Shown: one piece after another, positions 5,480 to 63,252 of the stretch
Numbering within the stretch: position 1 is the stretch's first letter
How the letters are laid out: each line of letters begins with the position of its first letter
Source: a virus
Lineage: Duplodnaviria > Heunggongvirae > Uroviricota > Caudoviricetes
Length of the DNA: 64,000 nucleotides
IMG/VR virus record: IMGVR_UViG_3300022561_001209
Strand: one strand, 5' to 3'
Notes under the pieces: generated by a model
Told to the model about the DNA's origin: nothing
Seen by the model: only the letters and a program-made list of their open reading frames with translations
Database searches by the model: none
Made by a program: the position numbers and the translations under genes

Positions 5480-5749
5480 CTATATTTTAGTCAGTAAGTT
5501 TTTAATTGGTGACAGTCTATAAAAATCTGATTTTATTATTACTTCTTTAGCCATTATATCATCCATCATGTCAGTTAAATCATCAGGTAATACACGTCTG
5601 TCTAAGATTATCTCACCATTAGAAGCATGATGCTTTTCTTTTATAACTGTCTCTGTTCCATTGTCACTTATTACTGTAATTTTAGATGCTATTCTATATA
5701 TTCTAGAATCAGGTAATCCATAAATTAATTGCTCCTTCACATCTTCCAT
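5480..5749 (-). CDS. hypothetical protein; stand-alone copy of the C-terminal domain of the upstream 311-aa protein
   Basis: LIYGLPDSRIYRIASKITVISDNGTETVIKEK parallels LYHGLPDSRIYKAASKITVLSYNGTEIVIKDR in ORF 5754-6689. True start is probably the internal Met (MEDVKEQ), not the overlapping upstream start. Confidence 0.4.
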   Translation of the reverse strand: MEDVKEQLIYGLPDSRIYRIASKITVISDNGTETVIKEKHHASNGEIILDRRVLPDDLTDMMDDIMAKEVIIKSDFYRLSPIKNLLTKI

Positions 5750-5753
5750 AGCT

Positions 5754-11706: not shown

Positions 11707-11751
11707 CTCGTATTATTATAATGTCTTTTCTTTTTAAGTTTGCGAGAATTT

Positions 11752-11831
11752 TGAGAATGGCAGGAATTGAACCTACGTCAACTTCAACCCTATTGGAAGG
11801 TGAGTGCTCTACCAACTTGAGCTACATCCTC
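11752..11831 (-). tRNA. tRNA-like gene with canonical acceptor, D and T arms but a non-canonical anticodon arm (possible pseudo-tRNA; loop CTTCCAA/TTCCAAT)
   Basis: minus strand reads GAGGATG-TA-GCTCAAGTTGGTAGAGC-A-...-GTAGGTTCAATTCCTGC-CATTCTC-A. The 7-bp acceptor stem has one G-U pair. The anticodon stem pairs poorly and about 11 nt lie between the anticodon and T arms. Confidence 0.45.
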
Positions 11832-11988
11832 ATAGTTATACTTAATATTAAAACACACACTAAATTTTTTGAACACATTTAACATAATAAATCAATCACA
11901 CAATAGTAACATTCAGAACGATTAAAAAGTTAAATTTTAATAACAATTTAATTTCGTATTAATTGTTTTAATATTCAATTTGTACTGA

Positions 11989-13865: not shown

Positions 13866-13950
13866 TGAAAGGTATAGGATTTGAACCTATGTAACTGTTA
13901 CATTAAACGGTTTACCAAACCGCCTCCTTAATCCTCTCGGACAACCTTCC
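13866..13950 (-). tRNA. class II tRNA (long variable arm, tRNA-Ser-like body) with apparent anticodon GGU
   Basis: GGAAGGT-TG-TCCGAGAGGATTAAGGAG-GCGGT-TTGGTAA-ACCGT-[16-nt variable arm TTAATGTAACAGTTAC]-ATAGG-TTCAAAT-CCTAT-ACCTTTC-A. CCA is not encoded. The D-arm and overall architecture resemble bacterial tRNA-Ser(GGA). Confidence 0.6.
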
Positions 13951-14486: not shown

Positions 14487-14570
14487 TGGTGAATAGTGTT
14501 GGATTTTAACCAACGAACCCGAAGGAACTGATTTACAGTCAGTTTGCTTTAACCCTTTGCTTACCTATTC
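14487..14570 (-). tRNA. tRNA-Tyr (anticodon GUA), class II, CCA encoded
   Basis: GAATAGG-TA-...-ACTGA-CTGTAAA-TCAGT-[TCCTTCGGGTTC variable arm]-GTTGG-TTAAAAT-CCAAC-ACTATTC-A-CCA. Perfect anticodon stem; the D-arm is less canonical. Confidence 0.6.
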
Positions 14571-40498: not shown

Positions 40499-41299
40499 TT
40501 ATTTTATCTCTAATATTTCTTTAAATATTTCATAGTTTCCTTTTTTTCCAGGTCTATCATAAACTGCAAATACTACTTTTTTAAATAAATGTAACATGTC
40601 CTCTTCTATAAGAAGTTCCAACCAATTATTTGCTACATCTTTAGTATTATTTCCAAATACACCACATCCGAATGCACCTAATACTACTGTTTTACAACCC
40701 TCACTAGTCATTAACTTTAGTATTTTTCTCATTCTGTTTTTCATTGCTCTTTTAGCTTCTTCTTCATTTTCCTGGTGTTTTAATACTTGTTCCATGTTTA
40801 CAGCTGCTGATGTTACTACTGTGACTGTCTTAGGTTTTTCTACTAGCTTAAAACTTCCTGTTCTAAAAAATCCCACATCTCCAATAATCATATTGTCTGT
40901 GTACATTTTACTCTTTACTTTATTATTAATTTCGTAAAACTCATTTCCCTCAAGTGTGTCATACAAATTGCTACAATAAGCTAAACATTCTTCTTGTGCC
41001 ATTGCACCGTTTTGAAATCCCCCACCAGGATTGTGTGCTGATGCAAAGTTTAGTACACCTATATTATCTTCTTTCAATCTAAATATAGTGTCTACTGTAC
41101 TTTCATTTACTATCTCTATTTCTGTGTTCACAAACTTACTTTGCCTGCTCACATCTAGTTTTTCTAAATAATCATTTCCGTAAAAATCTCCTATTTCTAT
41201 GTAGTTTAATTTAACTGTTTTACCATTTACTTTGTATTGTCCTGCTCCTACTATATCTAAAGTTTCTTTAGCTAAGTCCTTTAGCCTATTTCTATCCAT
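40499..41299 (-). CDS. bacterial-type poly(ADP-ribose) glycohydrolase-like macrodomain protein (DUF2263/TIGR02452 family)
   Basis: exact PARG signature GGG-x7-QEE (NFASAHNPGGGFQNGAMAQEECL) plus diphosphate-binding loop GAFGCGVFGN. Confidence 0.7.
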   Translation of the reverse strand: MDRNRLKDLAKETLDIVGAGQYKVNGKTVKLNYIEIGDFYGNDYLEKLDVSRQSKFVNTEIEIVNESTVDTIFRLKEDNIGVLNFASAHNPGGGFQNGAMAQEECLAYCSNLYDTLEGNEFYEINNKVKSKMYTDNMIIGDVGFFRTGSFKLVEKPKTVTVVTSAAVNMEQVLKHQENEEEAKRAMKNRMRKILKLMTSEGCKTVVLGAFGCGVFGNNTKDVANNWLELLIEEDMLHLFKKVVFAVYDRPGKKGNYEIFKEILEIK

Positions 41300-45698: not shown

Positions 45699-46724
45699 CT
45701 ACATCAACCCTTTAATTATCTTACCGTTAATATCCATAATGAGTTCTTCTATCTTCTTAGAGTCAGGCTCTTTAGGTAAAAATGTGTTTTTAGCTGCGTA
45801 CTTAAATCTTTTCTTGTATTCTTCTACTAATTCAAAGAAACTCTCGTCATAGCTTTCATCATCTTTTCTATATCCACCTGTTCTTATTTTCCGTAAAATA
45901 TCTAGTTCATTCTCTCTATATGTCACTATTTTACCTCTTTCTAATATGTCTAAACCCATAATGTATAGTCTAATTAAGTGCTGGGCATGTTTATCTAAAT
46001 GGTTATCATCTTTCTTTTTGTTTCTGTGATTTACTTTGTCGTAAAGTCTAATTACATTCTGCATTTCACCTAACATTCCTGCTAACTCTCTTAAAGAATA
46101 TTCTTTTAAATCGATTGTAACTTTAATTTCTTTGTCCATATCCTCTTTATCACTATCACCTAAATCTAATATTACTTTATTTTCATCAAACTCTGTGTAT
46201 CTACTTTCAAATGTCATCATAGCGTTTCTAATAGAGTTTAATATATGTTCTTCTTTCTTTACCTGCCCTAGTCTATCTCTTGCTAAGGCATTTTCCAACC
46301 TACTTAGTTGTTGGCTTGCATAACCGGAGAAACTTCCAATAGCTTTCTGAGATAGAAATATATCTCTGTTATCTAATAGTTGTTGTCCTTCTTTTGAAAC
46401 TATTAAATAATGTTCAGGTTTACATCCAAGTATCTCAATTACGTTAGGATTACAGTTCATTAGTAACTTAATCATCTTATTGAATGCATAAATAGTAGTG
46501 TCTGTGTTTGTCTCTACTATTTGCTCAAATTCTGTTAGCCCTATTAAATCTGAAGGTCTCTCTAATGCTACCCCTCGAACATCTATATCGCTTTGTCCGT
46601 CTTCTCTTTGAGTTCCGTATGCATGACTTCCGCCTAATGATAGTAACATTATTCTATCTTTTAAGTGTTCATCTTCCCTTAAGAAATCATATTCTTTAGC
46701 TTCTATTACTTTTTTAAAGTCCAT
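45699..46724 (-). CDS. polymerase-beta superfamily nucleotidyltransferase
   Basis: minimal NTase motif LSLGGSHAYGTQREDGQSDIDVRGV (GS...D-x-D) near the N-terminus with a helical C-terminal domain; resembles the predicted-nucleotidyltransferase family common in phage genomes. Confidence 0.55.
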   Translation of the reverse strand: MDFKKVIEAKEYDFLREDEHLKDRIMLLSLGGSHAYGTQREDGQSDIDVRGVALERPSDLIGLTEFEQIVETNTDTTIYAFNKMIKLLMNCNPNVIEILGCKPEHYLIVSKEGQQLLDNRDIFLSQKAIGSFSGYASQQLSRLENALARDRLGQVKKEEHILNSIRNAMMTFESRYTEFDENKVILDLGDSDKEDMDKEIKVTIDLKEYSLRELAGMLGEMQNVIRLYDKVNHRNKKKDDNHLDKHAQHLIRLYIMGLDILERGKIVTYRENELDILRKIRTGGYRKDDESYDESFFELVEEYKKRFKYAAKNTFLPKEPDSKKIEELIMDINGKIIKGLM

Positions 46725-47793: not shown

Positions 47794-48441
47794 TTACATG
47801 TATTTTTCTATTGTTTCTATATCATAGGCTATTTCAGATACTTCACCATACTTATTGTCATTTAAAGATTTCTTAATTTCATCAATAAGTTTGCTGTGTA
47901 AATTTTCCATTACACTGTATTTGTTCAATATTTTAATTAAATCATTCTCTAAAGTTACCTTTTCAACTTCTTCTGTAACTTCTTCTTCAACTTCTTCCTC
48001 TGTAACTTCTTCCTCTATTTCTTCTACTTCTTTTATGTCTGTTTCAATTATTTCAGTATTTTCATTTAATTGTTTACTATTTACTTCATTTCGTATTTTA
48101 TCTATATCAAATGAATTTTTATAATTTTTTTTAATCTCTATTTTGTTATCTTTTACAAAAGATTTTATAGAACCCTTATTTCGTTCTATACCCAGTTCTT
48201 TCTTTATACCTTCAGCTAATTGTATTATTGTCATGTTTGGACCATTTTCTCTTATATATTCAGCTTCTTCTTCATCTATATGGTTTTTTACTTTCTTAAG
48301 TTCTATGTTATATCTTTTACAATTATCCCTAATTGTATGTACCTCTACTTCAAATTTATCAGACCATTCTTTTGCTGAATGTTCTGCACCTTTTTCTATT
48401 AATTCCTTTATCATATCTTCTGTCATTCTTCTTTTACCCAT
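47794..48441 (-). CDS. multi-HTH family protein, member 1 (215 aa) with acidic EEV repeat
   Basis: C-terminal LENDLIKILNKYSVMENLHSKLIDEIKK is paralogous to the ORF 48523-49452 C-terminus; the N-terminal module AKEWSDKFEVEVHTIRDNCKRYNIE is shared. Confidence 0.5.
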   Translation of the reverse strand: MGKRRMTEDMIKELIEKGAEHSAKEWSDKFEVEVHTIRDNCKRYNIELKKVKNHIDEEEAEYIRENGPNMTIIQLAEGIKKELGIERNKGSIKSFVKDNKIEIKKNYKNSFDIDKIRNEVNSKQLNENTEIIETDIKEVEEIEEEVTEEEVEEEVTEEVEKVTLENDLIKILNKYSVMENLHSKLIDEIKKSLNDNKYGEVSEIAYDIETIEKYM

Positions 48442-48522: not shown

Positions 48523-49452
48523 TTATTGCATATATTTACTTACTATTTCTATCTCTTTTAATAAATTATGTACTTCCTCAAAATTAGAATTTTCTAATTC
48601 TGTAATTAAATTCTTAGATAGTTTATCTTGTAAATTGGTTAAAATACCATATTTATTCAATATATCTATTAAATCATTTTCTAATTCTTTTATTATTTTG
48701 TTATCATCCATAATAGCAACTTCTTGTAATAATTCTTTTACTTCAAAATCCTTTTTATTCTCTTTAACCTTTTTAACTTCCTTAACTTCCTTAACTTCCT
48801 TAACTTCCTTTTTCTCTTTACCTTTTTTAATTTCTAGATTTCTTCCTTCTAAAAAATTTTTAATAGTTTTATAACTTCTTTTATAACCTAAATCTTTTAA
48901 TCCCACTTCCATTTTTGAAGGTGTTAAGTTTTTATGATTTGTCAATATATATTCTATTTCTTTTTCAACTAAATCATTATTAGGCTTTTTATATTCTATA
49001 TTGTTTTCTTTACAAATTGTATAAATCGTAGTTACATCCACACCAAAGTATTCAGCCCATTCTTTAGCCGTAAAATCTTTTCCATTTTCCACTAATTCCC
49101 CAATAGCCTCAGCATTTATTTTTATATTACTTTTAGCTTCTACACATAAAACATTTAAACAGTAATCTCTTACACAAGTTGTAGACCTATCTAAATTTTT
49201 AGCCATTTCACTATAATTCATTTCTTTATAATTTTCCTTTATATAATTCTTTTCACTGTCTTTCAAATAACATAACTCTCTAAACTCTAAAGGAATTTTA
49301 GCCATTTTTATATAACTTCTTACTTTAGTATCGCTCAATTCTGACCTTGCTACTAATTCTTCAAAAGTCATCTCTCCAGACTTCACTAATTTATAATTAG
49401 CATGAATAAAATTCTCCCCACAATCTAATCTTCCACTTTCATAACTACCCAT
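48523..49452 (-). CDS. multi-HTH family protein, member 2 (309 aa) with (VKE)n repeat
   Basis: repeated about 50-aa modules (AKEWAEYFGVDVTTIYTICKENNIEY); paralogous to the ORFs at 47794-48441 and 49621-51294. Confidence 0.5.
   Translation of the reverse strand: MGSYESGRLDCGENFIHANYKLVKSGEMTFEELVARSELSDTKVRSYIKMAKIPLEFRELCYLKDSEKNYIKENYKEMNYSEMAKNLDRSTTCVRDYCLNVLCVEAKSNIKINAEAIGELVENGKDFTAKEWAEYFGVDVTTIYTICKENNIEYKKPNNDLVEKEIEYILTNHKNLTPSKMEVGLKDLGYKRSYKTIKNFLEGRNLEIKKGKEKKEVKEVKEVKEVKKVKENKKDFEVKELLQEVAIMDDNKIIKELENDLIDILNKYGILTNLQDKLSKNLITELENSNFEEVHNLLKEIEIVSKYMQ
48773..48808. repeat. in-frame 9-bp tandem repeat (TTAACTTCC)x4 encoding KEVKEVKEVKEV
   Basis: four perfect copies plus a degenerate fifth. 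Confidence 0.8.
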
Positions 49453-49620: not shown

Positions 49621-51294
49621 TTATTTAGTGTATGCTATTATATAAGGTTTTTCTGTGTCTATTTTCTCTATTCTATATGTTTTTATAATAGTATTTAACG
49701 TAGTTGTACCTCTCTCAAGTACTATTGACATTTGTTTTACGCTCATTATTCCATAATTTTTACGTAAATATATCAGTATTTTTATTAACTCTTCCTTTTC
49801 TATACGACCCTTAGTTTCTTTTAATATATCTATGTTATGCTTTTTACAATATGCTTTAATTGTGCCTACTTTAATTTTTAAATCTTGTGCTACCTGTTTT
49901 TCAGTCTTAATTGCTGCATTTTCTTTCATATACTTCTTCTGATAGTCAGTTAATTTTATTTTTTCTGCTCTACCACTGTCTACTTTTATCTTTATCTCAC
50001 TATTTTTTACAAGTTTATCTACATATTCTTGTATAGAGGATATTGGTACTTCGTAATTCAGTTCTAATTCTATTTGATATACTGTTTTCTCTTCTGCGTT
50101 ATTTTTTATATATTTTCTTTGTTCTTCTGTAAGTACACATCTATAATATTTAAATTTATTTCCTGTTGTATTCTCATATTCATTTAATAACAAAATTTGT
50201 ACTCCTAATTCTTCTGACATTTTACTTTTTGGCATGTGTTTAAAGTTATTTTCTATAAATTCAATTTCTTTTTCTGTTAATTCATCTTTAATATTGAATG
50301 TATACCCCAATTCTCTACATAACCTAAGTACTTGAGGTATCGAATATCCAAATATTTTTGATAATTCAAATACATCAGTTGTAGGATGTTCTTTTTTATA
50401 TTTAACCATTTTGTATCTTTTAAATGTCACAGGTCTATCTTTTATATATTGCTCTATTTCTTCAGTATCTACATCTAAATTTTTAGCCATTTCTTTTATC
50501 TCTAATTCTAAATAATTATTTTTTATGTATTCAATTATTTCACTATTCTTTTTTTTCATTTCCTCTTTATTTTTTTCATTTGATATAATGTATCTTAAAT
50601 ATTTAATATTATATTTATCACAAAAGTATCTTACATCATATGCACTAATATCAATTAATTTATTCGTTTCATTTAATTTTTCCGATAATTTTTTAGTTGT
50701 ATATTTTTCAGAATTTTCAAATATATATTCAACTTGTACAGGTGTAAATACTTTTGTTTTCCCTATGAATTTTAAATTACTATCCATACAATATTTATAT
50801 ATGTATTCACTGTCTTTTTTTAGTATTTTGCTTAGTTCCTTAATTCTCATATTTTTTGAATTTATATTTATGTAATACTTATCTTCCTTACTAAACATAT
50901 ATTCATCTAAGTTTTCCTGTATTTCTTGTGTTCCCTGTGTTTCTTTAATTCTTGTAATATCTGCCCCACTGATTTTATTTTTCTTGTGCCCTAGTCTGAT
51001 TCCACAACTTCTACAAAATTGTATAACATTAAATCTATCTAGATTTTTGTCATTAATTACTTTTTTTAAATCATCTAGTAGTTCTTCTGATTTTCTTAAG
51101 CTTCCCCATCTAAATATATAATCAATTTGTTCTTTCATAAAAACATATTCAGGTCCTCTTACTTTTATGTTATTATTCATAATATATTTACTTAATTCTT
51201 TTGTATCTATACCTAATTCAGTAGCCATATCAACTATTTTCATTTTTCTTGCGTTATTCATTATGTATTCACACTGTTTATAATCTAATTTCAT
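49621..51294 (-). CDS. multi-HTH family protein, member 3 (557 aa; about 8 tandem HTH-like modules)
   Basis: repeated modules such as ELSKYIMNNNIKVRGPEYVFMKEQIDYIF, IKELSKILKKDSEYIYKYCMDSNLKF, LSKIFGYSIPQVLRLCRELGYTF, VAQDLKIKVGTIKAYCKKHNIDI. Confidence 0.5.
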   Translation of the reverse strand: MKLDYKQCEYIMNNARKMKIVDMATELGIDTKELSKYIMNNNIKVRGPEYVFMKEQIDYIFRWGSLRKSEELLDDLKKVINDKNLDRFNVIQFCRSCGIRLGHKKNKISGADITRIKETQGTQEIQENLDEYMFSKEDKYYININSKNMRIKELSKILKKDSEYIYKYCMDSNLKFIGKTKVFTPVQVEYIFENSEKYTTKKLSEKLNETNKLIDISAYDVRYFCDKYNIKYLRYIISNEKNKEEMKKKNSEIIEYIKNNYLELEIKEMAKNLDVDTEEIEQYIKDRPVTFKRYKMVKYKKEHPTTDVFELSKIFGYSIPQVLRLCRELGYTFNIKDELTEKEIEFIENNFKHMPKSKMSEELGVQILLLNEYENTTGNKFKYYRCVLTEEQRKYIKNNAEEKTVYQIELELNYEVPISSIQEYVDKLVKNSEIKIKVDSGRAEKIKLTDYQKKYMKENAAIKTEKQVAQDLKIKVGTIKAYCKKHNIDILKETKGRIEKEELIKILIYLRKNYGIMSVKQMSIVLERGTTTLNTIIKTYRIEKIDTEKPYIIAYTK

Positions 51295-53624: not shown

Positions 53625-53717
53625 TTATATCCCTCCGACTATTAAAACAGCATATTATTTATAATTGCATTATATTTACTATCTAATAAATACTAGGGAG
53701 TTTATTCTCCCTAGTAT

Positions 53718-54929
53718 TTAAATTTTTAATGTAGTATGCAATCCCCAAGGTGGTATTTGTGTTTCATTAATTACTACCCATAAAACAGGAATACCATTAG
53801 TTACTCTTTCATCAGGCCAATGTGCATACCCGTCTGTTAAAAATACTATTCCAGTTACATCTTCTCTTTCAAAGTGTTCATTAGTGTACTCGAATGGTTT
53901 ATCAAAATTTGTCCCACCACCACCTTGTGGCTTAATTTTTAATACATCAGTTACTCCCTCAAATTCTGTAGGTTCATAAGCAATACCATCGAAAAATCCT
54001 ATGTATCCAGTTAATTTATCTGCAAACTGATTAACTGCTCCCACTATCTCACTATAAAATGTATTTAATTCCTTATCTCCTATTGAACCACTAGTGTCTA
54101 CCCAAAATAACATCTTCTTAACACTTATACTTTCACCATTAAAATCAGGTAAGAAAAAATCACTTTCACTAAATCTTCTGTCTGGAGGATTAAATGAGTA
54201 GTCATCTATTTCAGGCTGAACAAACTCTGCAAGTAGACTTCTCCAATCTCTTTGAGGTTTAGTTATTTTACCCACTAATCTTTTTAAAAATGCAGGTAGT
54301 TTACCCCTACCCTCTGCCGCTTGAGCCGCACTTACTAGTCTACCACCCCAATCAGTCTCAATACCCTTACCAACTGCATCTCCCCACCTACTATGGTCAT
54401 CCAGTATTCCCAATTTAGATAATAAACTATCAGGTACTAAATCGTAAATTTCTTCAGCGCCCTTGTCTTTATATTTAATATCGTATAATATGCCTTTTGG
54501 CATTTCTAATACACTCTTTTTCTTATCTTTGTTATTTCTATTTATTGTTCTTTCTTTATCTTTATCCATATTTTCTTTGTATTGTGTCATTATATCATGT
54601 ATTGCATAATCACATGCTACATTCCATTTTTCATGTAGTCTATCACCTTTTCTAAATAAGTGTTTTAAAGCAGGGTGCATTACTTCGTGCACTATTACCC
54701 AATTTACTTCTCCCTCGCTCATGTTTTCTATGAAATAAGGATTGTAATATATTTTCTTACCGTCTGTAGCTGCTGTATTTATTGTATAATCTACTTCCAT
54801 TTCTAAACTTAAGATTAGAATTCCGAAGAATGGCATACTCATTAGCATTTGTACTCTTGCTCTAGTTACCTTATCCTTTACCTTATCTTCCCTATCTTTA
54901 CTCATTTCCTTATATATATTTAACGTCAT
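53718..54929 (-). CDS. vWA-domain protein with N-terminal putative zinc-metallopeptidase (HExxH) domain; partner of the MoxR ATPase (DUF2201-type architecture)
   Basis: HExxH in NWVIVHEVMHPALKH; C-terminal vWA with MIDAS LFWVDTSGSIGD ... FFDG ... GGGGTNF. Confidence 0.7.
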   Translation of the reverse strand: MTLNIYKEMSKDREDKVKDKVTRARVQMLMSMPFFGILILSLEMEVDYTINTAATDGKKIYYNPYFIENMSEGEVNWVIVHEVMHPALKHLFRKGDRLHEKWNVACDYAIHDIMTQYKENMDKDKERTINRNNKDKKKSVLEMPKGILYDIKYKDKGAEEIYDLVPDSLLSKLGILDDHSRWGDAVGKGIETDWGGRLVSAAQAAEGRGKLPAFLKRLVGKITKPQRDWRSLLAEFVQPEIDDYSFNPPDRRFSESDFFLPDFNGESISVKKMLFWVDTSGSIGDKELNTFYSEIVGAVNQFADKLTGYIGFFDGIAYEPTEFEGVTDVLKIKPQGGGGTNFDKPFEYTNEHFEREDVTGIVFLTDGYAHWPDERVTNGIPVLWVVINETQIPPWGLHTTLKI

Positions 54930-55044
54930 AAACTACACCTAAACCCTTTCATTTCAATTTTAATAAACATTTATAATAGAATATATATAGATATATACTC
55001 ATATATATCCTATTAATCCCTTAAAACTCATTTAAATCCCTGTA

Positions 55045-56115
55045 TTACATTATAAATCCTCTGTATTTCTTAATACCTTGTATCCATTCAGGCATTACCT
55101 GTATTTTCTTTCTTAAACTTTCTATTACTGCAATATCTCTTATAGTTAATGTAGCAAACTCTGCAGGCATTTCCAATATAAAGTTTATTATATTTTTAAG
55201 TTCAGTTTCTTTAGCTTTCTGTACATTTGCAGATAATGTTGAAGATAAAGCATATAGTATACTAGGCTCACTAGGCATTTCTACCTTTTTCCCGTCCATT
55301 ATATCTTTAATACTAGGTAACTTATCATATACCTTAGTATAAGCTCTAAACTCTGTAGCCGCCCCTAATCCTATAGAACCTGCTATTAATGGGAATGCTT
55401 TTTCTATACTTCCTATTTGTTTTATATATGTATCGACCATTTCCCAACTTCTTGGTGTTGGATAAGCTACGTCATCATTACTAGGGTCAAATTGAAATAG
55501 TGAACTATTCTTAAAGTTTACATAACCTATAATTGTACTATCTATTCCATGAGGTATTGCCCATTTCTTCCAGTCATCGACATCGCATACCATTTCAATA
55601 TGTGTCATTCTATTCGCAAGTGCCTTAGGCATTTTATAGCTTACACTCTTATCTGTAACTCTATTTCCTGCCGCAACTACTATACAGTTATCAGGTAATT
55701 TATGTTCCCCTATTATCCTATCTAGTGTAATCTGATATGCTGCCGCTTGAACACTTAATGGAGCTGCACTTATTTCATCTAATATTAATATGTTTATAAC
55801 ATCTTCACTTGAGTTCATTTGAAATATTTGAGGTTTTAACCAAATAGCCAATTCTTTTTTAGCATCTGCTACAGGTATTCCTCGTAAATCAACAGGATTA
55901 AATAATAGTAATCTAACATCTGTAATAACTACATTTTTTCTAGCTAAATTTTCTAATTTTATAGCTATCTCTCTAAAACTTTGTGATTTACCAATTCCTG
56001 GAGGTCCCCATATCATTAAACTTGGTACTTTTTTAGGACTTGTCTTTGCGTACAAAGGAGTCATCAAATCTACCATATCGTTAATATTCATTTGCATTAT
56101 GTTCATATTTGCCAT
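55045..56115 (-). CDS. MoxR-family AAA+ ATPase (AAA_5; CbbQ/NorQ-like)
   Basis: Walker A IWGPPGIGKSQ, Walker B ILILDEIS, sensor VVAAGNR; 356 aa single AAA module with C-terminal helical domain. Confidence 0.8.
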   Translation of the reverse strand: MANMNIMQMNINDMVDLMTPLYAKTSPKKVPSLMIWGPPGIGKSQSFREIAIKLENLARKNVVITDVRLLLFNPVDLRGIPVADAKKELAIWLKPQIFQMNSSEDVINILILDEISAAPLSVQAAAYQITLDRIIGEHKLPDNCIVVAAGNRVTDKSVSYKMPKALANRMTHIEMVCDVDDWKKWAIPHGIDSTIIGYVNFKNSSLFQFDPSNDDVAYPTPRSWEMVDTYIKQIGSIEKAFPLIAGSIGLGAATEFRAYTKVYDKLPSIKDIMDGKKVEMPSEPSILYALSSTLSANVQKAKETELKNIINFILEMPAEFATLTIRDIAVIESLRKKIQVMPEWIQGIKKYRGFIM

Positions 56116-56154
56116 TTAAAATTCCTCTTTTCTCTTATTTTTAATTATATACAC

Positions 56155-56183
56155 ATCATATACTATAATTCATAAAAAGTCAA
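56155..56183 (-). promoter_or_regulatory. sigma-A-type promoter TTGACT-17-TATGAT with UP element, upstream of the MoxR/vWA pair
   Basis: minus strand reads GTATTGACTTTTTATGAATTATAGTATATGAT; -35 at 56178-56183. Confidence 0.55.
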
Positions 56184-56254
56184 TACTTTTTTATAACTTT
56201 TTTTAATAATTTTAAAATTAATAATATACTGTATTTTTACAGTATTTTATGTAC

Positions 56255-57064
56255 TTAACTAGCTAATTTAGCCATCATTAAACAAGCTTCTATGTTATCT
56301 TTCTGTCCCTCTGTCAAATTAAATTCGTATAAATCATCTATAAATTTGTCTACAGAAATTTCAGTATTGTTTTTTATTGTTTTATTAGTTATCTTATCTG
56401 TCAATCTTTTTATATATGTATATTCCACATATCTTTTCATTGCTATACAATTATTATATAGTTCTCTAACCCCTTTTCTATTAGATAGTATATATCCCTT
56501 ATATTTATCATAAATCTCTTTTAGTTCATTGTTATTAAATATTGTACTTTCACCGTGATAACTTATTAATCTTTCTACAACCATATAATTACTCATAATT
56601 GCTTCAAATAAATCTTTTCTCTGTTCTCTACTATCTATTTTGTTATATATTTTACTTATTTCATTACTTATAGAATTACTCAAATAGTTTTCCTTTTTCA
56701 AATGCTCAATAGTATACAATAAACAATATCTATCAGCTACAACTTTCCTTAAGTAGTTACTATCATGTTCTATCAATATATCTAATAATTCTTCTTTCTC
56801 TCTTATATTAGTGCATTTAGAAAGTAAGTACCTATTTATTTCATCATCATCTTTTTTAACTAACTGTATTAATTTATCTTTATCTTCGCAATCTATTGTT
56901 CCGGTTTTATGTAATTCTTCGTTTATCAATAAATCTACTGCGTATTTAGATTTATATATTTCTGACTTACTAATTTCTTGGTATACTTCTTCAAATGATA
57001 CCTCATTATTTCTAAATTTGTTTATTAAATCTATAATGTTAAATTTTACTTTTTTACGTGTCAT
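56255..57064 (-). CDS. paralog family A, member 1 (269 aa), unknown function
   Basis: shares the N-terminal NEVSFEEVYQEI block, central E(L)KEIYDKYK block and C-terminal Y(I)(Y/K)RL(T/V)DKI block with four downstream paralogs. Confidence 0.5.
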   Translation of the reverse strand: MTRKKVKFNIIDLINKFRNNEVSFEEVYQEISKSEIYKSKYAVDLLINEELHKTGTIDCEDKDKLIQLVKKDDDEINRYLLSKCTNIREKEELLDILIEHDSNYLRKVVADRYCLLYTIEHLKKENYLSNSISNEISKIYNKIDSREQRKDLFEAIMSNYMVVERLISYHGESTIFNNNELKEIYDKYKGYILSNRKGVRELYNNCIAMKRYVEYTYIKRLTDKITNKTIKNNTEISVDKFIDDLYEFNLTEGQKDNIEACLMMAKLAS

Positions 57065-57099
57065 AATTTAATTCTCCTTTATCATATTTATTCATATCT

Positions 57100-57128
57100 A
57101 TTATACCATAACACTAAAAAAATGTCAA
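57100..57128 (-). promoter_or_regulatory. consensus sigma-A promoter TTGACA-17-TATAAT (TGG-extended) with UP element
   Basis: minus strand reads GTATTGACATTTTTTTAGTGTTATGGTATAATAGA; -35 at 57123-57128, -10 at 57100-57105. Confidence 0.7.
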
Positions 57129-57443
57129 TACTTTTTACAAACCTTTTTTAATAATTTTATAAATATTGATTTTAACATTAAATTACATAAAAATAGGTGC
57201 TACTTTTTAGTAACCCCTATTCTGCAAGTTTGTTTATAATTAACAAAGCTTCTAATTCATCTTTTGTATTTTCATTTTTCGTAAAGAACTCTTTTATTTC
57301 TTCACTATCTAACAATGTTTCAGTTAGTTCTACATTCTCTTTGTCTTTTGCTATCTTAATTAGTTTTATCAATATATCTCTATGAGAATTACAGTAATTT
57401 AGTTGTGCTTTAGATAATTCCTTAAACAAATTACTTACCTCCC

Positions 57444-58440
57444 TTATTTTGATATCTTTTCTATTAATATAACTGCCTCTAACTTATTTTTTGATTCAAC
57501 ACTCTTATTTAAGAACTCCTCAAATTTATTATATTCCAACACTCTTTTTATTCGTGTAATTCTATCGTTTCTTACTAATCTATCTATGAACTCTATTTTT
57601 TCATTTTCACTTATGTAATCCACGAATATCGTACAATTAGAATAGTAATATTCTTTTTCCTTATTAAATAATATATCAGAATATTTATCATAAATTTCTT
57701 TTAGTTCTTTTTCATTCATATCCACATTAAATACTTTATTTAAATGTATCCCAGTTTTAAAATAGCCTTGTATCTCTGAATCTTCTTCTTTATATATTAT
57801 TATATCTAGTAAAGATTCTAATTTGCATTCTTCAGACCCTCTAAACTCTACTACCATATTGTGACAGAACAAATATTTTATGATATCCTCTCTATTTATT
57901 AGTGCTTCAAATAATTCATTTCTTTCTTTTTCATGTTCTGAAATAAATCCAAGTATTTTTATGATTACTAACATAAACCCACTACTAATTTCATCGTCGT
58001 ATGAATCGAATACTTTATCTGATTTGGTTATTATCTTATTTATCAGTTTATATATTCTTAAAATTTCCATATTTCTAAATTCTTCTTGTTTTTCATTTTT
58101 CAATGCTTTTGATAGTAATTCTATGTATTCATCATCTTCTAATTTAAATTTTTCAATGATTCTTGATACTAAACTATGTCTTTTAATTATATATTCAGTT
58201 AGTTCTTCTAATTCACCTTCGTTAAATTCTTTTTTATAAATGTATATATTAGCACATATTACATTTTCATATCTTTTTTAGCCAACAATTCTTTAAGTTA
58301 ACTATAAGAATAAATGTTAACTACTTCTTTTAGTTTTTTATCTATGTTATTTAAATTTTCTGAAAATCCTCCAGGTGTACTTCTAACTTTTCTAATTAAC
58401 CCCTTAATTTCGTTTAATTTATTTTCCACTATCTAACCCC
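57444..58440 (-). pseudogene. paralog family A, member 2, frame-disrupted
   Basis: the reported ORF (57444-58103) begins at a TTG, but the frame stays open upstream to a TAA at about 58283. That upstream stretch (KRYENVICANIYIYKKEFNEGELEELTEYIIKRHSLV...) aligns with the paralogs. The N-terminal 45 codons (VENKLNEIKGLIRKVRSTPGGFSENL...) lie in a different frame at 58310-58440, separated by stops. Confidence 0.5.
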
Positions 58441-59222
58441 TATTCAGTTATTTTAAATAAAATTATCTTTGCGTTTATTTTTTCTATCTCCTCTTCACTT
58501 AGTTTAAATTTATACATACTGTCTATTAAGTTATTCATATATCCTGTTTGTTTAGTTCTTATTATCTTATCTACTAGTCTATCTATATATATGTATTCCG
58601 TAAATTTATTCATTATTGCAATATTACTGTATAGTCTAGGTACACTTAGTCTGTTTGAGAACATTTCTTCTTTGTATTTTTCATACATTCTATATTTCTC
58701 TTCATCAGTCATTATACTTTGAATATTATACCACAACATTAGTTGTTTTATTAAGTCTATATTTTCTACTACCGATGTAATTAATAACTTTTTACTATAA
58801 GTATCTGTCTCTGAATATATGCTATTTCTTATATTATTTAACGTAATAGAATTAAATAATCTGTCTTCTGTACTTATGTTTCTAATTACATATAATAAGT
58901 ACCTAAAATTACATAATAATTGTAATGTATCTTTATTTCCTGTTTCAATAGCTTTGTTTAATAATTTTTCTTCGTACTTATTGTCACACACATATTTATT
59001 TAAGAACTTTATACATTCATTACCGTCATCTAATATTAAGTCAAACAATTTATCTCTATGGTCTTCTGTTATAATTCCTTTTTCTTTTAATTTCTTATCG
59101 TTTATTAAACTTGTAGAGTATTTATATTTAAACTTACTGCTATCTTTTAGTTCCTCATAAATTTTCTCAAATGTTATTTCATTTTTCTTTAGTTTCTTTT
59201 TTATTTCTGCTATCTGTTCCAA
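58440..59222 (-). CDS. paralog family A, member 3 (260 aa)
   Basis: NEITFEKIYEEL ... EKYRMYEKYKEEMF ... YIYIDRLVDKIIR blocks. Confidence 0.5.
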   Translation of the reverse strand: MEQIAEIKKKLKKNEITFEKIYEELKDSSKFKYKYSTSLINDKKLKEKGIITEDHRDKLFDLILDDGNECIKFLNKYVCDNKYEEKLLNKAIETGNKDTLQLLCNFRYLLYVIRNISTEDRLFNSITLNNIRNSIYSETDTYSKKLLITSVVENIDLIKQLMLWYNIQSIMTDEEKYRMYEKYKEEMFSNRLSVPRLYSNIAIMNKFTEYIYIDRLVDKIIRTKQTGYMNNLIDSMYKFKLSEEEIEKINAKIILFKITE

Positions 59223-59241
59223 TGTATTCCCTACCCCTTTA

Positions 59242-60063
59242 CTATACAGCCAATTTTAACAATATTAGTTTTCCATCTATTTCATCTATTTCATCTTCTG
59301 TTAGTTTAAATTTGTTTATGTTTTCCATAATTAACTCGCCATGTTCTGTGTCAATAACTTCACATATATTATCCACTAAGTTCATTACATAACTACTGTC
59401 TATATACTTATGCAACACTTCACATACTCTATACATATAGTATATATTTGGTTTTCCGTTATAAATGTATCTTTTATCTTTCAATATTTTTTCTTTATGA
59501 ATATTGTACATCTTCTCTATAGTTTCTTCACTAAGTGCATCATAAAAATCCACCATTAGTCTTATTGCTACTCCATATATATTTATTGATAATTTAATTA
59601 ATTCCTGATTATATTCCCTTTTACTTATTACAACTATCCTATTTATTACAGATTGAATTATATGTTCCCCTATTTGAATATCACTTTTTTCTATGTATTT
59701 CAAAGCATATTTTATGTATTCGTCATTTTTAAATATATCACTCAAATCTTGATTACTTGTAAATTTTCCTTCAGATATATCTCTATTAATAATGTACTCT
59801 ATAATATATTCACTTTCTTCTTTATTAGGCTTACCTTTACACACGAATTTTATCATGTATCCATCTTTTTTCAAAACGATGTCAAATAATATTTTTCTTT
59901 GTTCATCAGTTATTTTTTCAGAATAACTCATAATTTCATAAGCGTATTCATGTTCATATTCTTTATATAGTTTTATTTCTTTAAGTATCTTTTCAAATGT
60001 AGCTGACCCATTATCTAAGTACTCAGCTAATTTTTTAGACTTAACCATAAGTTTACCGAACAT
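59242..60063 (-). CDS. paralog family A, member 4 (273 aa)
   Basis: SATFEKILKEI ... EKMYNIHKEKILKDKRYIY ... MNLVDNICEV blocks. Confidence 0.5.
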   Translation of the reverse strand: MFGKLMVKSKKLAEYLDNGSATFEKILKEIKLYKEYEHEYAYEIMSYSEKITDEQRKILFDIVLKKDGYMIKFVCKGKPNKEESEYIIEYIINRDISEGKFTSNQDLSDIFKNDEYIKYALKYIEKSDIQIGEHIIQSVINRIVVISKREYNQELIKLSINIYGVAIRLMVDFYDALSEETIEKMYNIHKEKILKDKRYIYNGKPNIYYMYRVCEVLHKYIDSSYVMNLVDNICEVIDTEHGELIMENINKFKLTEDEIDEIDGKLILLKLAV

Positions 60064-60066
60064 TAT

Positions 60067-60261
60067 TTACTCTCCTAGTAACTCCCTTATTTTAGAGTAG
60101 TTATCCATTTTACTTTCTACTATTTCGCCGTTCTCGTTGTAGTAGTTTCGTAAATTTATTTCAATTATTGGTTTACCATTTGAACTTGTATTAACATTTA
60201 TTTCTTCTTTACTATCTAATTCTTCATAACATCTTTTTAATATGTCTTTAAATTTATCCAT
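60067..60261 (-). CDS. hypothetical small protein
   Basis: ORF 64 aa; start overlaps upstream stop (ATGA). Confidence 0.35.
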   Translation of the reverse strand: MDKFKDILKRCYEELDSKEEINVNTSSNGKPIIEINLRNYYNENGEIVESKMDNYSKIRELLGE

Positions 60262-60680
60262 CAGTTACTCCTCAGTTTATTCATTATCCTTACACCGTCT
60301 ATTTTGTCTTTTAATTCTTTGTTTTTATTTATAACTTTGCTATTATCTTTAATACTCGTAAATATATCTATATCATTAAGTTTGTCATTTTCCAAAAGTT
60401 CTTTAATTATATAGTATATTTCTTTTTCAGAGAATTCACAATCATAAGAATATAAATTAGCACTGTAATTCTTTACTACATGACTTATTATATTCATATG
60501 TTCATTTTCACTTAACTTAACATTATTTCGTAAAATATCTAAAGATATATTTGTATCCTCTAAATATCTCTCTAGTGCACTATAAATTTCTTCTTTACTT
60601 AAATATCTTATTCTAGCACTTATATCAACGTATTTTGCATATTCTTCTTTATTTAATATTCTGTTCCATACATCATTCAT
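60261..60680 (-). CDS. hypothetical protein
   Basis: ORF 139 aa. Confidence 0.4.
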   Translation of the reverse strand: MNDVWNRILNKEEYAKYVDISARIRYLSKEEIYSALERYLEDTNISLDILRNNVKLSENEHMNIISHVVKNYSANLYSYDCEFSEKEIYYIIKELLENDKLNDIDIFTSIKDNSKVINKNKELKDKIDGVRIMNKLRSN

Positions 60681-60683
60681 TAG

Positions 60684-61499
60684 TTATCCTGCCAATTCCT
60701 CCATTATTACAAATGAATCTAGTAAATCTTTCAGATTACTACTTAATCTAAGTATTGGTCTATAATTTGATTGATAAAGTATATTTTTAGCCTCACCTAC
60801 TTTTCTTTCTTCTAATGCTTTATATACCAGTGTTTCTCTATTTTCATCTGTAATATATTTAAACATTACTATACACATATTAAAGTATTCGTCAAAATAC
60901 ATATTTTTATTAAATATTTTATCTTTGTTCTTTTTATATATTTTATCAATCTCTTCTTCCATGAATACATTACTTCTATTGTTGTAATAAAATCTGTAAT
61001 ATATTTTTCCTACTATATCTACAATAATATCAGGCCTATCTAATAATTTATTGAATATTCTCTTTTTGTAAGGTTCGTTATCACCCATTCTTGTGTAATA
61101 ATTAAAAATCAATGCTATCAATTCTGTATAGCAATCATCATTAACTATAGGTCTATTTAACTTTTTTATTACGTATGCAACTTCATCTTTTCTCTTTAAT
61201 ACCGATATAATACTTTTGTAACAATTCCTATTAATTAGAACGTCCAACATCCCTTGTCTTTCTCCAGGTTTTATCTTACATCTTATTAAAAACCCTTTAC
61301 ATGCTGTTTCATCTAATTTAATTAAGTTCAATAAATATTCTCTGTCTATTTCACTTATTTCTTCGTCAAAATCTGAAAGTACTTCCATAGAGTTTAATGA
61401 CATTGTTTCAGGTTCAGTACCCATTTTATTCAGTAGTTCGTCAAAACTAATTTCTTTACTTCTAAACTTCTGCTTTAAATAAAAAATATCAATACTCAT
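60684..61499 (-). CDS. paralog family A, member 5 (271 aa)
   Basis: KEISFDELLNKM ... EEIDKIYKKNKDKIFNKNMYF blocks. Confidence 0.5.
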   Translation of the reverse strand: MSIDIFYLKQKFRSKEISFDELLNKMGTEPETMSLNSMEVLSDFDEEISEIDREYLLNLIKLDETACKGFLIRCKIKPGERQGMLDVLINRNCYKSIISVLKRKDEVAYVIKKLNRPIVNDDCYTELIALIFNYYTRMGDNEPYKKRIFNKLLDRPDIIVDIVGKIYYRFYYNNRSNVFMEEEIDKIYKKNKDKIFNKNMYFDEYFNMCIVMFKYITDENRETLVYKALEERKVGEAKNILYQSNYRPILRLSSNLKDLLDSFVIMEELAG

Positions 61500-62718: not shown

Positions 62719-62979
62719 TTATATATCGTAAATTGTGTACATTCCATCAGCTATTTCATCCATTATGTCTTCTATGCTATGATGATTTCTCCAATTACTA
62801 TAAGTTATTATTATGTATCTGTCATACCTCTTACTAGCCATGTACCTCATGTGTTTTTCTATTCTATTTATTATTCCCTGTCTAGTCTTTAATTCAGTTA
62901 TAAATACTCCCTCTGAACCACAAGGTACGTTTCCATTTTCATCTATGTATATTAACACATTTTGATTTTCCATATTCAC
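62719..62979 (-). CDS. hypothetical small protein, paralog of next
   Basis: KRYDRYIIITYSNW parallels NGYDRYVTLTFYEW in the ORF at 62995-63252. Confidence 0.4.
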   Translation of the reverse strand: MNMENQNVLIYIDENGNVPCGSEGVFITELKTRQGIINRIEKHMRYMASKRYDRYIIITYSNWRNHHSIEDIMDEIADGMYTIYDI

Positions 62980-62994
62980 CCTCCGACTTATTTA

Positions 62995-63252
62995 TTAATC
63001 TATACAAGCTATTTCATATTTTCCGTTGTCTATATTGGCTAATATATCACATACATCTCTTGTTTTCCACTCATAAAATGTCAATGTCACGTATCTGTCA
63101 TATCCATTTAATTTCATGTTTCTTATGTGTATTCTTGCCTCACTACCTAATTCATTTAATTCATTATAATTTGTTAGTAACACATCTCCACTTTCAATAG
63201 CCACATTTTCCTCTCTGTCCATAAATAATAATGCTAATGTTTTTACACTCAT
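62995..63252 (-). CDS. hypothetical small protein, paralog of previous
   Basis: shared motif as above. Confidence 0.4.
   Translation of the reverse strand: MSVKTLALLFMDREENVAIESGDVLLTNYNELNELGSEARIHIRNMKLNGYDRYVTLTFYEWKTRDVCDILANIDNGKYEIACID

What the first reader, a model, noticed from the sequence alone, without database searches (positions are those of the whole stretch)
53718..56183. Promoter-driven two-gene module: MoxR AAA+ ATPase plus vWA/HExxH-metallopeptidase-like protein, placed immediately upstream of a five-member paralog array
MoxR-vWA pairs are NTP-dependent chaperone/switch modules, and some lineages use them in conflict systems. Here the pair is driven by its own sigma-A promoter inside a block of early-type genes. 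The vWA partner carries an intact HExxH site (VIVHEVMHPALKH) and a full MIDAS motif, so a proteolytic output is plausible. Its target is unknown; it could be a host takeover or anti-defence device, or an assembly chaperone. The five rapidly diversifying paralogs follow directly downstream, each separately promoted. ATPase-protease pairs next to diversifying gene families are a recurring layout in conflict loci.
Basis: partly seen in the sequence, partly recalled or inferred. Interest (0 to 1): 0.65.

Follow-up and report, generated by a model that had tools for sequence, protein, structure and literature searches.

The report
Phage MoxR ATPase plus vWA-zincin pair
This is a real two-gene phage operon encoding an ATP-driven remodelling enzyme and a partner that combines a protein-grabbing domain with a zinc-protease domain; the pair is already known from hundreds of phages (coliphage N4 gp24/gp25 and others), its target has never been tested, and it is not tied to the neighbouring gene family.

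Summary
The ATPase gene lies at 56115..55045 (-), 356 aa. It matches phrog_1297 (E 4e-98) and just reaches the Pfam AAA_3 cut-off. The partner gene lies at 54929..53718 (-), 403 aa, with DUF2201_N (zincin) plus DUF2201 (vWA).

HExxHx4H and the full MIDAS motif are invariant in 41 close homologues. They are also invariant in N4 gp25, phage G gp576, phiFa, GAP32 and PA5oct.

A TTGACT-17-TATGAT promoter sits 40 nt before the ATPase start. A strong hairpin follows the second gene.

The pair is not new:
- Relatives occur in 606 (vWA-zincin) and 850 (ATPase) phage records.
- gp24 and gp25 are core genes of N4-like phages.
- The pair was described in jumbo phages in 2021.

The link to the paralogue array fails:
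- The array lies transcriptionally upstream, not downstream.
- It has two strong promoters, not five.
- It is absent beside the pair in every relative examined.

Most likely mechanism, inferred: MIDAS binds a protein, the AAA+ ring remodels it and the zincin cuts it. The substrate is unknown; context slightly favours an early, nucleic-acid-linked role over virion assembly.

In passing: in many Clostridia genomes the pair forms a three-gene cassette with an SNF2-like helicase.

The parts
56155..56183 (-). Sigma-70/sigma-A-type promoter-like site, TTGACT - 17 nt - TATGAT. It ends 40 nt before the ATPase start codon.
   Evidence: It is intergenic, and its spacing to the ATG falls within the 30-63 nt range seen for seven of the eight perfect-consensus promoters of the window.
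56155..56225 (-). 71-nt promoter region (-10, -35 and an A/T-rich upstream stretch). It repeats the region of the perfect promoter at 57100-57170.
   Evidence: family D2, 75% identity; the 18-mer AAAAAGTATTGACWTTTT occurs exactly twice without mismatch (56174-56191 and 57119-57136).
55045..56115 (-). MoxR-like AAA+ ATPase, 356 aa. Walker A GPPGIGKS is at 55984-56007 and Walker B D113-E114 at 55774-55779. Sensor-1 N151 and R169 are conserved.
   Evidence: It is 53.8% identical to phage G gp566. The invariant residues are P39 G40 G42 K43 S44 D113 E114 N151 R169 R222.
54930..55044 (-). 115-nt spacer between the two genes, with a Shine-Dalgarno-like AGGTG before the second ATG. The predicted fold is not significant.
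   Evidence: (z -1.75). In relatives the same position holds 0-9 inserted genes.
53718..54929 (-). vWA-zincin protein, 403 aa.
54225..54929 (-). N-terminal zincin-like domain (residues 1-235). The HExxHx4H motif (H81 E82 H85 H90) is at 54660-54689. D107 is invariant.
53721..54137 (-). C-terminal vWA domain (residues ~265-403) with a complete MIDAS motif: D278-T-S280-G-S282 (54084-54098), T340 (53910-53912) and D366 (53832-53834).
53687..53720 (-). 14-bp G+C-containing hairpin overlapping the stop codon of the second gene. It is the likely terminator of the two-gene unit.
   Evidence: -20.3 kcal/mol, z -6.3, and 0 of 200 shuffles fold as well. The U-tract on the - strand is weak.

Best explanation
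This is a bicistronic operon, bounded by its own promoter and terminator, in the non-structural part of an AT-rich jumbo phage of a low-G+C (probably clostridial) host. It encodes a MoxR-like AAA+ ATPase and its cognate adaptor-effector. That partner has a C-terminal vWA domain with a complete MIDAS site and an N-terminal minimal zincin (HExxHx4H). It is the same kind of pair as coliphage N4 gp24/gp25 and phage G gp566/gp576.

Proposed working, by analogy with characterised MoxR-vWA machines (inferred, not shown):
- The MIDAS metal site captures an acidic residue of a target protein.
- The ATPase ring docks on the vWA protein and uses ATP hydrolysis to pull on or remodel the target.
- The attached zincin cleaves the target.
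- Together they act as a two-polypeptide, substrate-selective AAA+ protease.

The promoter resembles the host sigma-A consensus, and the surrounding 64 kb holds replication-type and small early-type genes. I therefore infer expression before the late genes. I also infer a target inside the infected cell that is more likely nucleic-acid-associated (replication, transcription or host nucleoid proteins) than a virion protein.

The pair is functionally independent of the adjacent paralogue array.
For: Shown:
- Family assignment.
- Catalytic and metal-site residues are invariant from 27% to 63% identity, including N4, G, phiFa, GAP32 and PA5oct.
- The order ATPase then vWA on one strand holds in 9 of 9 phage or phage-like loci.
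- The same order holds in 77 of 80 bacterial loci. Two of the three exceptions are cut by a contig end.
- The promoter and hairpin are present.
- The pair is widespread: 606 and 850 phage records, and more than 4600 proteins at E<=1e-10.

Supporting the early, nucleic-acid-linked reading (circumstantial):
- N4 gp24/25 are middle genes next to dCTP deaminase and the replication genes (PMC4193335).
- phiFa has RNase H between the two genes.
- GAP32 has DprA-like and thymidylate synthase genes just downstream.
- A NusG-like gene lies 2-6 genes downstream in phage G and three related contigs.
- The window carries a sliding-clamp gene, a clamp-loader-like ATPase, a methyltransferase and tRNAs, and has no clear virion module.
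- In 52 of 80 bacterial loci the pair is fused into a cassette with an SNF2-like helicase.
Against: - No experiment on any member of this phage pair was found in the searchable literature.
- The only published proposal is a virion-assembly chaperone with proteolytic processing (PMC7824862).
- In GAP32 the pair directly follows four genes annotated as virion structural proteins and an Hsp70-like gene.
- The PA5oct ATPase carries the record note 'ESI-MS/MS', the same note that record puts on CDSs annotated as structural proteins.
- The AAA_3 score only just reaches Pfam's cut-off.
- Promoter timing is inferred from sequence alone.
Confidence: 0.55

Rival explanations
1. Virion-assembly chaperone and co-chaperone pair. 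The MoxR ring and vWA adaptor help fold or assemble head or tail proteins, and the zincin trims structural precursors (the proposal of Iyer et al. 2021).
For: - Published proposal for the same pair in group 2.2 jumbo phages, with the precedent of the MoxR-vWA pair of Acidianus two-tailed virus, which is needed for tail development (PMC7824862).
- In GAP32 the pair follows genes annotated as virion structural proteins and an Hsp70-like gene.
Against: - In N4 the genes are middle genes, separated from the late structural block (PMC4193335).
- In this window and in the G-like contigs the pair lies among small early-type, transcription and replication genes. It has a host-type promoter, and no virion gene is recognisable within 64 kb.
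- The closest cellular relatives are chromosomal cassettes with a helicase and no virion genes.
Confidence: 0.25
2. Conflict device (host takeover or anti-defence) that works together with the adjacent diversifying paralogue array.
For: - MoxR-vWA-peptidase architectures are used in bacterial counter-invader systems.
- The cellular helicase-ATPase-vWA cassette sits in variable contexts that sometimes include WYL, TIR or recombinase genes.
- The window also carries a PARG/macro gene.
Against: - There is no PADLOC family hit for either protein.
- The array is upstream and separately transcribed.
- The array is absent next to the pair in all relatives.
- The pair is a core, vertically conserved gene set in N4-like phages. 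That is unusual for accessory anti-defence genes (PMC4193335).
- No third (VMAP, iSTAND or FtsH) component is present.
Confidence: 0.12
3. Metal-cofactor insertion or chelatase-type module (CobS/CobT-, CoxD/CoxE- or NorQ/NorD-like), in which the HExxH site binds metal without cutting protein.
For: - Depositors annotate some cyanophage homologues as MoxR-like ATPase.
- 22 of 41 homologues weakly touch VWA_CoxE.
Against: - The family-defining N-domain is the DUF2201_N zincin type, with the catalytic Glu invariant.
- No metalloenzyme client gene is conserved nearby in phages.
- CoxE-type scores are below the cut-off for the window protein.
Confidence: 0.05

Closest known systems
Coliphage N4 gp24 (ATPase) / gp25 (vWFA protein), core genes of N4-like phages (Schitoviridae)
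   Same: Both share the two PHROG families (phrog_1297, phrog_1314), the order and strand, and the invariant Walker, HExxHx4H and MIDAS residues. Function is unknown in both.
   Different: Identity is only 28-30%. N4 genes are read by the phage middle RNA polymerase, whereas this pair has a host-consensus-like promoter. The genome type also differs: a 70-kb podovirus against a contig of at least 180 kb from a low-G+C host phage.
Bacillus phage G gp566 / gp576 and related uncultured jumbo-phage contigs
   Same: These are the best phage matches, at 53.8% and 37.8% identity. They share the domain architecture and have Firmicute hosts.
   Different: In phage G nine small genes separate the two genes. 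Here they are adjacent. A NusG-like gene lies downstream in G and in contigs L006-L008, but none was found among the downstream window ORFs that were scanned.
MoxR AAA+ plus metallopeptidase-vWA pair of 'group 2.2' jumbo phages (Iyer et al. 2021, PMC7824862), e.g. GAP32 and PA5oct
   Same: Same architecture and same families.
   Different: Those phages infect Gram-negative hosts. The context is partly structural in GAP32, and the authors propose virion assembly. Here the context is non-structural.
Characterised MoxR-vWA machines: CbbQ-CbbO, NorQ-NorD, RavA-ViaA, Mg-chelatase BchI-BchD, Rea1/Midasin MIDAS, and ATV p618/p892
   Same: All combine an AAA+ ring of the MoxR/midasin clade with a MIDAS-bearing vWA adaptor. 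The ATPase profile's best solved match is a midasin AAA module. Midasin MIDAS, NorD and BchD appear among the vWA fold matches.
   Different: None of these carries a zincin on the vWA protein, and their outputs are remodelling or cofactor insertion rather than cleavage. The mechanistic transfer is an inference from established knowledge of those systems.
VMAP-, FtsH- and iSTAND-type MoxR-vWA ternary conflict systems of multicellular bacteria (Kaur et al. 2020, PMC7159879)
   Same: MoxR plus vWA, with peptidase effectors sometimes fused to the vWA protein.
   Different: Those systems have a defining third component (VMAP, FtsH, beta-propeller or iSTAND), and the peptidase sits at the effector position. 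No third conserved gene is present here, and the zincin is an N-terminal DUF2201_N.
Wss1/SPRTN-type zincins working with the AAA+ Cdc48/p97 (my own knowledge, not tested here)
   Same: The logic is similar: a small HExxH zincin plus an AAA+ unfoldase acting on DNA-bound proteins. Wss1, Spartan and ArdC are among the N-domain fold matches. 9 of 41 homologues touch the SprT-like Pfam model.

Membership tests
MoxR-type AAA+ ATPase (Pfam AAA_3; MoxR/midasin clade) | Walker A GxxGxGK[ST] and Walker B hhhhDE | tested here: met
   GPPGIGKS (residues 37-44) and LILDE (D113 E114) are invariant in 9 homologues, including N4, G, phiFa, GAP32 and PA5oct.
MoxR-type AAA+ ATPase (Pfam AAA_3; MoxR/midasin clade) | Sensor-1 Asn and conserved Arg (finger / sensor 2) positions | tested here: met
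   N151 (AAGN), R169 (ALANR) and R222 are invariant. The assignment of roles to these residues is by position only.
MoxR-type AAA+ ATPase (Pfam AAA_3; MoxR/midasin clade) | Score at or above the curated family threshold | tested here: inconclusive
   AAA_3 scores 27.1 bits against a cut-off of 27.0, so it only just passes. The cellular homologue L014 scores 33.5 bits. The profile against PDB ranks midasin AAA first (7e-8), then RFC (about 2e-6), then a MoxR structure 2r44 (1e-3).
MoxR-type AAA+ ATPase (Pfam AAA_3; MoxR/midasin clade) | Adjacent gene for a vWA/MIDAS partner | tested here: met
   The partner is on the same strand, 115 nt downstream. This arrangement is conserved in phage and bacterial loci.
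MoxR-type AAA+ ATPase (Pfam AAA_3; MoxR/midasin clade) | Hexameric ring, ATP hydrolysis | not testable with these tools
   Needs biochemistry or a multimer prediction.
vWA domain with MIDAS | DxSxS ... T ... D metal-site motif | tested here: met
   D278 S280 S282 T340 D366 are invariant in 41 close and 10 distant homologues.
vWA domain with MIDAS | Rossmann-like vWA fold | tested here: met
vWA domain with MIDAS | Divalent-cation-dependent ligand binding | not testable with these tools
   Needs biochemistry.
Zincin metallopeptidase (Pfam DUF2201_N, 'putative metallopeptidase') | HExxH with a further metal ligand | tested here: met
   H81 E82 H85 plus H90 and D107 are invariant. Which of H90 or D107 is the third ligand is inferred, not shown.
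Zincin metallopeptidase (Pfam DUF2201_N, 'putative metallopeptidase') | Family HMM above threshold | tested here: met
   113.5 bits against a cut-off of 23.2. All 41 of 41 homologues match.
Zincin metallopeptidase (Pfam DUF2201_N, 'putative metallopeptidase') | Zincin fold (active-site helix plus mixed sheet) | tested here: inconclusive
Zincin metallopeptidase (Pfam DUF2201_N, 'putative metallopeptidase') | Peptide-bond hydrolysis | not testable with these tools
   No member has been assayed, as far as the searchable literature shows.
N4 gp24/gp25-type phage gene pair | Both proteins match the two phage families, full length | tested here: met
   phrog_1297 covers 3-351 of 356 residues (3.6e-98). 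phrog_1314 covers 8-396 of 403 residues (9e-77). tblastn to N4 and others is.
N4 gp24/gp25-type phage gene pair | ATPase gene upstream of the vWA gene, same strand | tested here: met
   9 of 9 phage or phage-like loci.
MoxR-vWA ternary conflict systems (VMAP/FtsH/iSTAND types) | Conserved third component next to the pair | tested here: not met
   No gene is conserved beside the pair across phage loci. The neighbours of the pair in the window have no Pfam hit. No VMAP model was available, so absence rests on the lack of any conserved neighbour.
Known anti-phage defence families (PADLOC-DB 2.0) | HMM match to a defence protein family | tested here: not met
   The vWA-zincin protein has no hit. 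The ATPase has only P-loop-level hits at E>1e-3 (DolB, mad8, IetA).
HNH endonuclease (the name attached to phrog_1314 and to many RefSeq records) | HNH/His-Me finger domain | tested here: not met
   Pfam finds only DUF2201_N and DUF2201. The motif is HExxH, not HNH, so the name is most likely an annotation error that has spread.

The most novel reading that the evidence does not exclude
The phage pair and the clostridial three-gene cassette (SNF2-like helicase, then MoxR-like ATPase, then vWA-zincin) are two deployments of one uncharacterised machine. That machine would strip and cleave proteins bound to nucleic acid. The cellular cassette sits in variable genomic contexts and would be an undescribed defence or genome-maintenance system. 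The helicase-less phage version, core to N4-like phages and common in jumbo phages, would be used early in infection to remove host DNA-bound proteins or defence proteins from the phage or host genome.
Probability: 0.15. Interest if true: 0.7.

Novelty: new member of a known kind. Interest (0 to 1): 0.3.

Why it matters
This gene pair is one of the most widely conserved phage modules without a tested function. gp24 and gp25 are two of only 14 core genes of N4-like phages, and homologues occur in hundreds of sequenced phages and in many bacterial genomes. Finding its substrate would fill a real gap in phage biology.

This particular window adds little beyond another member from a low-G+C jumbo phage, because N4 is the tractable place to test the pair. 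The helicase-linked cellular cassette seen in passing gives a concrete and testable hint that the machine acts on nucleic-acid-bound proteins.

Tried and rejected
- Megablast of 9 kb of the window against 50,697 phage records gave no match. The phage itself is not in GenBank phage collections.
- A scan of viral contigs with the ATPase gave no confirmed relative.
- Single-sequence searches of PDB gave nothing significant for either protein. Profiles were needed.
- Full-length fold searches saw only the vWA domain. A separate N-domain model was required.
- A word-indexed search with one paralogue found only itself. The exhaustive profile search found 30 weak relatives. Look-ups of three of them gave contigs too short to show context.
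- The CRISPRi-ART phage functional-genomics paper does not mention these genes.
- The PA5oct omics paper uses a different gene numbering, so the virion-association note could not be checked in the text.
- I considered that the spacer between the two genes holds a structured RNA. The fold is not better than shuffles.
- I considered that the pair is CobS/CobT-like. I rejected this because of the invariant zincin domain and the lack of CobT-type hits.
- I considered the HNH endonuclease annotation and rejected it.
Full report
**What is there**

All ORFs of this AT-rich window (24-32% G+C; GC skew negative throughout) lie on the minus strand. The finding's coordinates match two adjacent minus-strand genes.
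- The first gene, at 56115..55045, encodes a 356-aa ATPase.
- The second gene, at 54929..53718, encodes a 403-aa protein.
- A 115-nt spacer separates them.

The exact 403-aa protein occurs on metagenome contigs of up to about 180-220 kb. The window also carries a sliding-clamp homologue, a clamp-loader-like ATPase, a DNA methyltransferase, an RlaP-type nucleotidyltransferase and three tRNAs. It is therefore part of a jumbo phage. The best phage relative for both proteins is Bacillus phage G, at 53.8% and 37.8% identity. There is no nucleotide-level match in GenBank phages.

**Identity of the two proteins**

The ATPase:
- It matches phrog_1297 end to end (E 3.6e-98) and just reaches the Pfam threshold for AAA_3, the MoxR family (27.1 against 27.0 bits).
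- Walker A, Walker B, a sensor-1 Asn and two Arg residues are invariant in an alignment with N4 gp24, G gp566, phiFa, GAP32, PA5oct and three metagenomic relatives.
- A profile of that alignment finds a midasin AAA module as its best solved relative (7e-8). RFC subunits follow, and more weakly a MoxR structure and McrB.

The second protein:
- It has DUF2201_N ('putative metallopeptidase', E 1.8e-32) and DUF2201 (vWA-like, 5.6e-13).
- In 41 homologues of 38-63% identity, H81, E82, H85, H90 and D107 are invariant. So are D278, S280, S282, T340 and D366.
- The same residues are invariant when N4 gp25, G gp576, phiFa, GAP32 and PA5oct are added.
Both the zincin site and the MIDAS site are conserved.

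Structure:
- No closely related structure has been solved.

The label 'HNH endonuclease' carried by phrog_1314 and by many RefSeq records has no support. Only the HExxH zincin and vWA models match.

**Transcription signals**

The site TTGACT-17-TATGAT at 56183-56155 is intergenic and ends 40 nt before the ATPase ATG. Promoter-like matches as a class are not enriched in this DNA (79 found, 88 expected).

The window nevertheless has eight perfect TTGACA-17-TATAAT sites on the minus strand. All are intergenic; seven end 30-63 nt before an ORF start and the eighth (14836) sits about 240 nt upstream of the tRNA-Tyr gene. These look like a genuine class of host-sigma-A-type phage promoters.

The pair's promoter lies in a 71-nt stretch that is 75% identical to the perfect promoter region 945 nt upstream. 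The two stretches share the exact 18-mer AAAAAGTATTGACWTTTT.

A 14-bp hairpin (-20.3 kcal/mol, z -6.3) overlaps the stop codon of the second gene. The two genes are thus best read as one bicistronic unit. Expression timing is inferred, not shown.

**The paralogue array**

The family is real. BLASTP between members ranges from 2.5e-31 to 2.5e-4. Four copies are full length (260-273 aa) and a fifth long copy is 5'-truncated (219 aa). Two short ORFs share the C-terminal motif.

- The array (61499..56255) is transcriptionally upstream of the pair.
- Only two strong promoters serve it (61576 and 57128), and most members are tightly packed or overlapping.
- Nothing shows rapid diversification, because copies of the contig from five samples differ by at most 0.3%.

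The family is tiny, with 30 hits at E<=1e-3 among 1.84 billion representative proteins; the strongest hits match the window's own genes in length. It is absent from the neighbourhood of the pair in three related metagenomic contigs (tblastn). It is also absent from the annotated loci of N4, G, phiFa, GAP32 and PA5oct. The adjacency here is therefore a local accident of gene order, not a conserved layout.

**How common and how known the pair is**

Distribution:
- tblastn finds the vWA-zincin protein in 606 phage records and the ATPase in 850. These include Escherichia, Vibrio, Klebsiella, Pseudomonas, Erwinia, Campylobacter and cyanophage genomes.
- The large protein database holds more than 4600 relatives at E<=1e-10.
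- In every phage locus inspected the ATPase gene precedes the vWA gene on the same strand.
- Between them lie 0 genes (N4, GAP32, L007, L008, this window), 1 (L006), 3 (phiFa), 4 (PA5oct, including a homing endonuclease) or 9 (phage G).

Literature:
- N4 gp24 and gp25 are two of the 14 core genes of N4-like phages and are described there as middle-gene transcripts of unknown function (PMC4193335; also PMC2784036).
- Iyer et al. (PMC7824862) explicitly describe a MoxR AAA+ plus metallopeptidase-fused vWA pair in group 2.2 jumbo phages. They propose a role in virion assembly with proteolytic processing, by analogy with the MoxR-vWA pair of Acidianus two-tailed virus.
- I found no experimental test of any member.

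**Mechanism**

What is shown: a conserved operon of a MoxR-clade AAA+ ATPase with a protein that joins an intact MIDAS vWA domain to an intact HExxH zincin.

What is inferred from established knowledge of CbbQ-CbbO, NorQ-NorD, RavA-ViaA, Mg-chelatase and Rea1/Midasin:
- The MIDAS site binds an acidic residue of a client.
- The AAA+ ring engages the vWA protein and applies ATP-driven force.
- The zincin, which is unique to this family, adds cleavage. The result is a substrate-selective AAA+ protease built from two chains.

The biological target is unknown. Several points favour an early, nucleic-acid-linked target.
- The promoter is of host type, and this 64-kb region is non-structural.
- N4's middle-gene position is next to dCTP deaminase and the replication genes.
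- RNase H lies between the genes in phiFa.
- DprA-like and thymidylate synthase genes lie downstream in GAP32.
- A NusG-like gene lies a few genes downstream in phage G and three related contigs.
- The cellular cassette described below includes a helicase.

Other points favour virion assembly.
- It is the published proposal.
- In GAP32 the genes just upstream are annotated as virion structural proteins and an Hsp70-like protein.
- The PA5oct ATPase record carries an 'ESI-MS/MS' note.

I rate the generic grab-remodel-cut mechanism as likely. I rate the nucleic-acid-linked role as somewhat more likely than virion assembly, and neither as established.

**Seen in passing: a cellular three-gene cassette**

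A scan of one genome per bacterial species returned at least 591 relatives of the vWA-zincin protein. Among the best 80 loci, mostly Clostridia MAGs:
- 77 have the ATPase just upstream.
- 52 have, directly before the ATPase, a 1100-1200-aa SNF2/ResIII-type helicase. The helicase and ATPase genes sit a few to tens of bases apart, and in L014 and L015 the ATPase and vWA genes overlap by 14 nt.

The ATPases of these cassettes are 44-55% identical to the window's ATPase, as close as phage G's.

The flanks are highly variable. The commonest flanking cluster occurs in 11 of 52 loci. The nearest neighbours spread over 78 Pfam families, ranging from ribosomal protein S9 to WYL, LRR_5 and recombinases. 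The cassette thus behaves as a self-contained unit.

PADLOC has no family for the vWA-zincin protein. For the helicase it gives only weak partial DrmD-, BrxH- and DpdE-type hits.

Cyanobacterial and alphaproteobacterial loci have the pair without this helicase. The window has no such helicase. I did not find this triad described in the papers I could search, but that search was narrow.

**Verdict**

The element is an additional member of a known, widespread phage gene pair, and the proposed coupling to the paralogue array is not supported. Interest is modest. The open question (what the pair does) is real, but it is neither new nor better addressed in this uncultured phage than in N4.

Noticed in passing
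L014 3321-9287; L015 3390-9323; 52 of the loci L016-L095: In Clostridia genomes the MoxR-like ATPase and the vWA-zincin gene form a tight three-gene cassette behind a 1100-1200-aa SNF2/ResIII-type helicase. The flanks are variable and there is no conserved fourth gene. The cassette matches no PADLOC system.
   Followed up: partly
window, - strand: 57128, 51352, 49543, 47719, 39063, 35342, 14836, 8585 (-35 start), plus 61576 (11 of 12): There are eight perfect TTGACA-17-TATAAT promoters. All are intergenic; seven end 30-63 nt before an ORF start and the one at 14836 lies upstream of a tRNA gene. They point to a strong class of host-sigma-A-type promoters across the whole 64-kb region.
   Followed up: partly
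window 56255-61499 (-): A lineage-specific paralogue family lies here. Four copies are full length (260-273 aa). One copy is 5'-truncated (57444-58103, with the open frame running about 45 codons beyond any start codon). Two short ORFs (60261-60680 and 57217-57429) share the C-terminal motif. The family has no Pfam or PHROG match and only 30 relatives among 1.84 billion representatives.
   Followed up: partly
phrog_1314 and RefSeq records (e.g. NC_008720 gp25, NC_023719 gp576, NC_019401 GAP32_211): The vWA-zincin protein family is widely labelled 'HNH endonuclease'. Only HExxH zincin and vWA models match, so the name looks like an annotation error that has spread.
   Followed up: yes
between the ATPase and vWA genes: window 54930-55044; L006, L010, L011, L013: The gap between the two genes is an insertion hot spot in relatives, holding 0 to 9 small genes. 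These include an RNase H (phiFa) and a homing endonuclease (PA5oct).
   Followed up: partly
window 47794-48441, 48523-49452, 49621-51294 (-): A second paralogue set of HTH-repeat proteins (215, 309 and 557 aa) lies here. Two of the three genes (48523-49452 and 49621-51294) are preceded by a perfect consensus promoter; a third perfect promoter (47719) lies just downstream of the set.
   Followed up: no
window 40499-41299 (-) and 45699-46724 (-): One gene encodes a microbial-type PARG plus macro-domain protein (E 2.9e-32). Another encodes an RlaP-type nucleotidyltransferase (phrog_388, 1.8e-50). Both are candidate modifiers of ADP-ribosylation or nucleotide signalling.
   Followed up: no
window 62719-62979 / 62995-63252; 9400-10257 with 10272-10463, 10646-10876, 10961-11179; 5480-5818 / 5754-6689 (-): Further small tandem duplicates and gene fragments are found elsewhere in the window.
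   Followed up: no
window 11751-11832, 13866-13950, 14487-14570 (-): Three phage tRNA genes are present (Gly-TCC, Thr-GGT, Tyr-GTA). One follows a perfect consensus promoter at 14836.
   Followed up: no
L006 10894-11487; L007 10582-11166; L008 10328-11920; L010 14163-14765: A NusG-like gene recurs 2-6 genes downstream of the vWA-zincin gene in phage G and related contigs. None was found among the downstream window ORFs that were scanned.
   Followed up: partly
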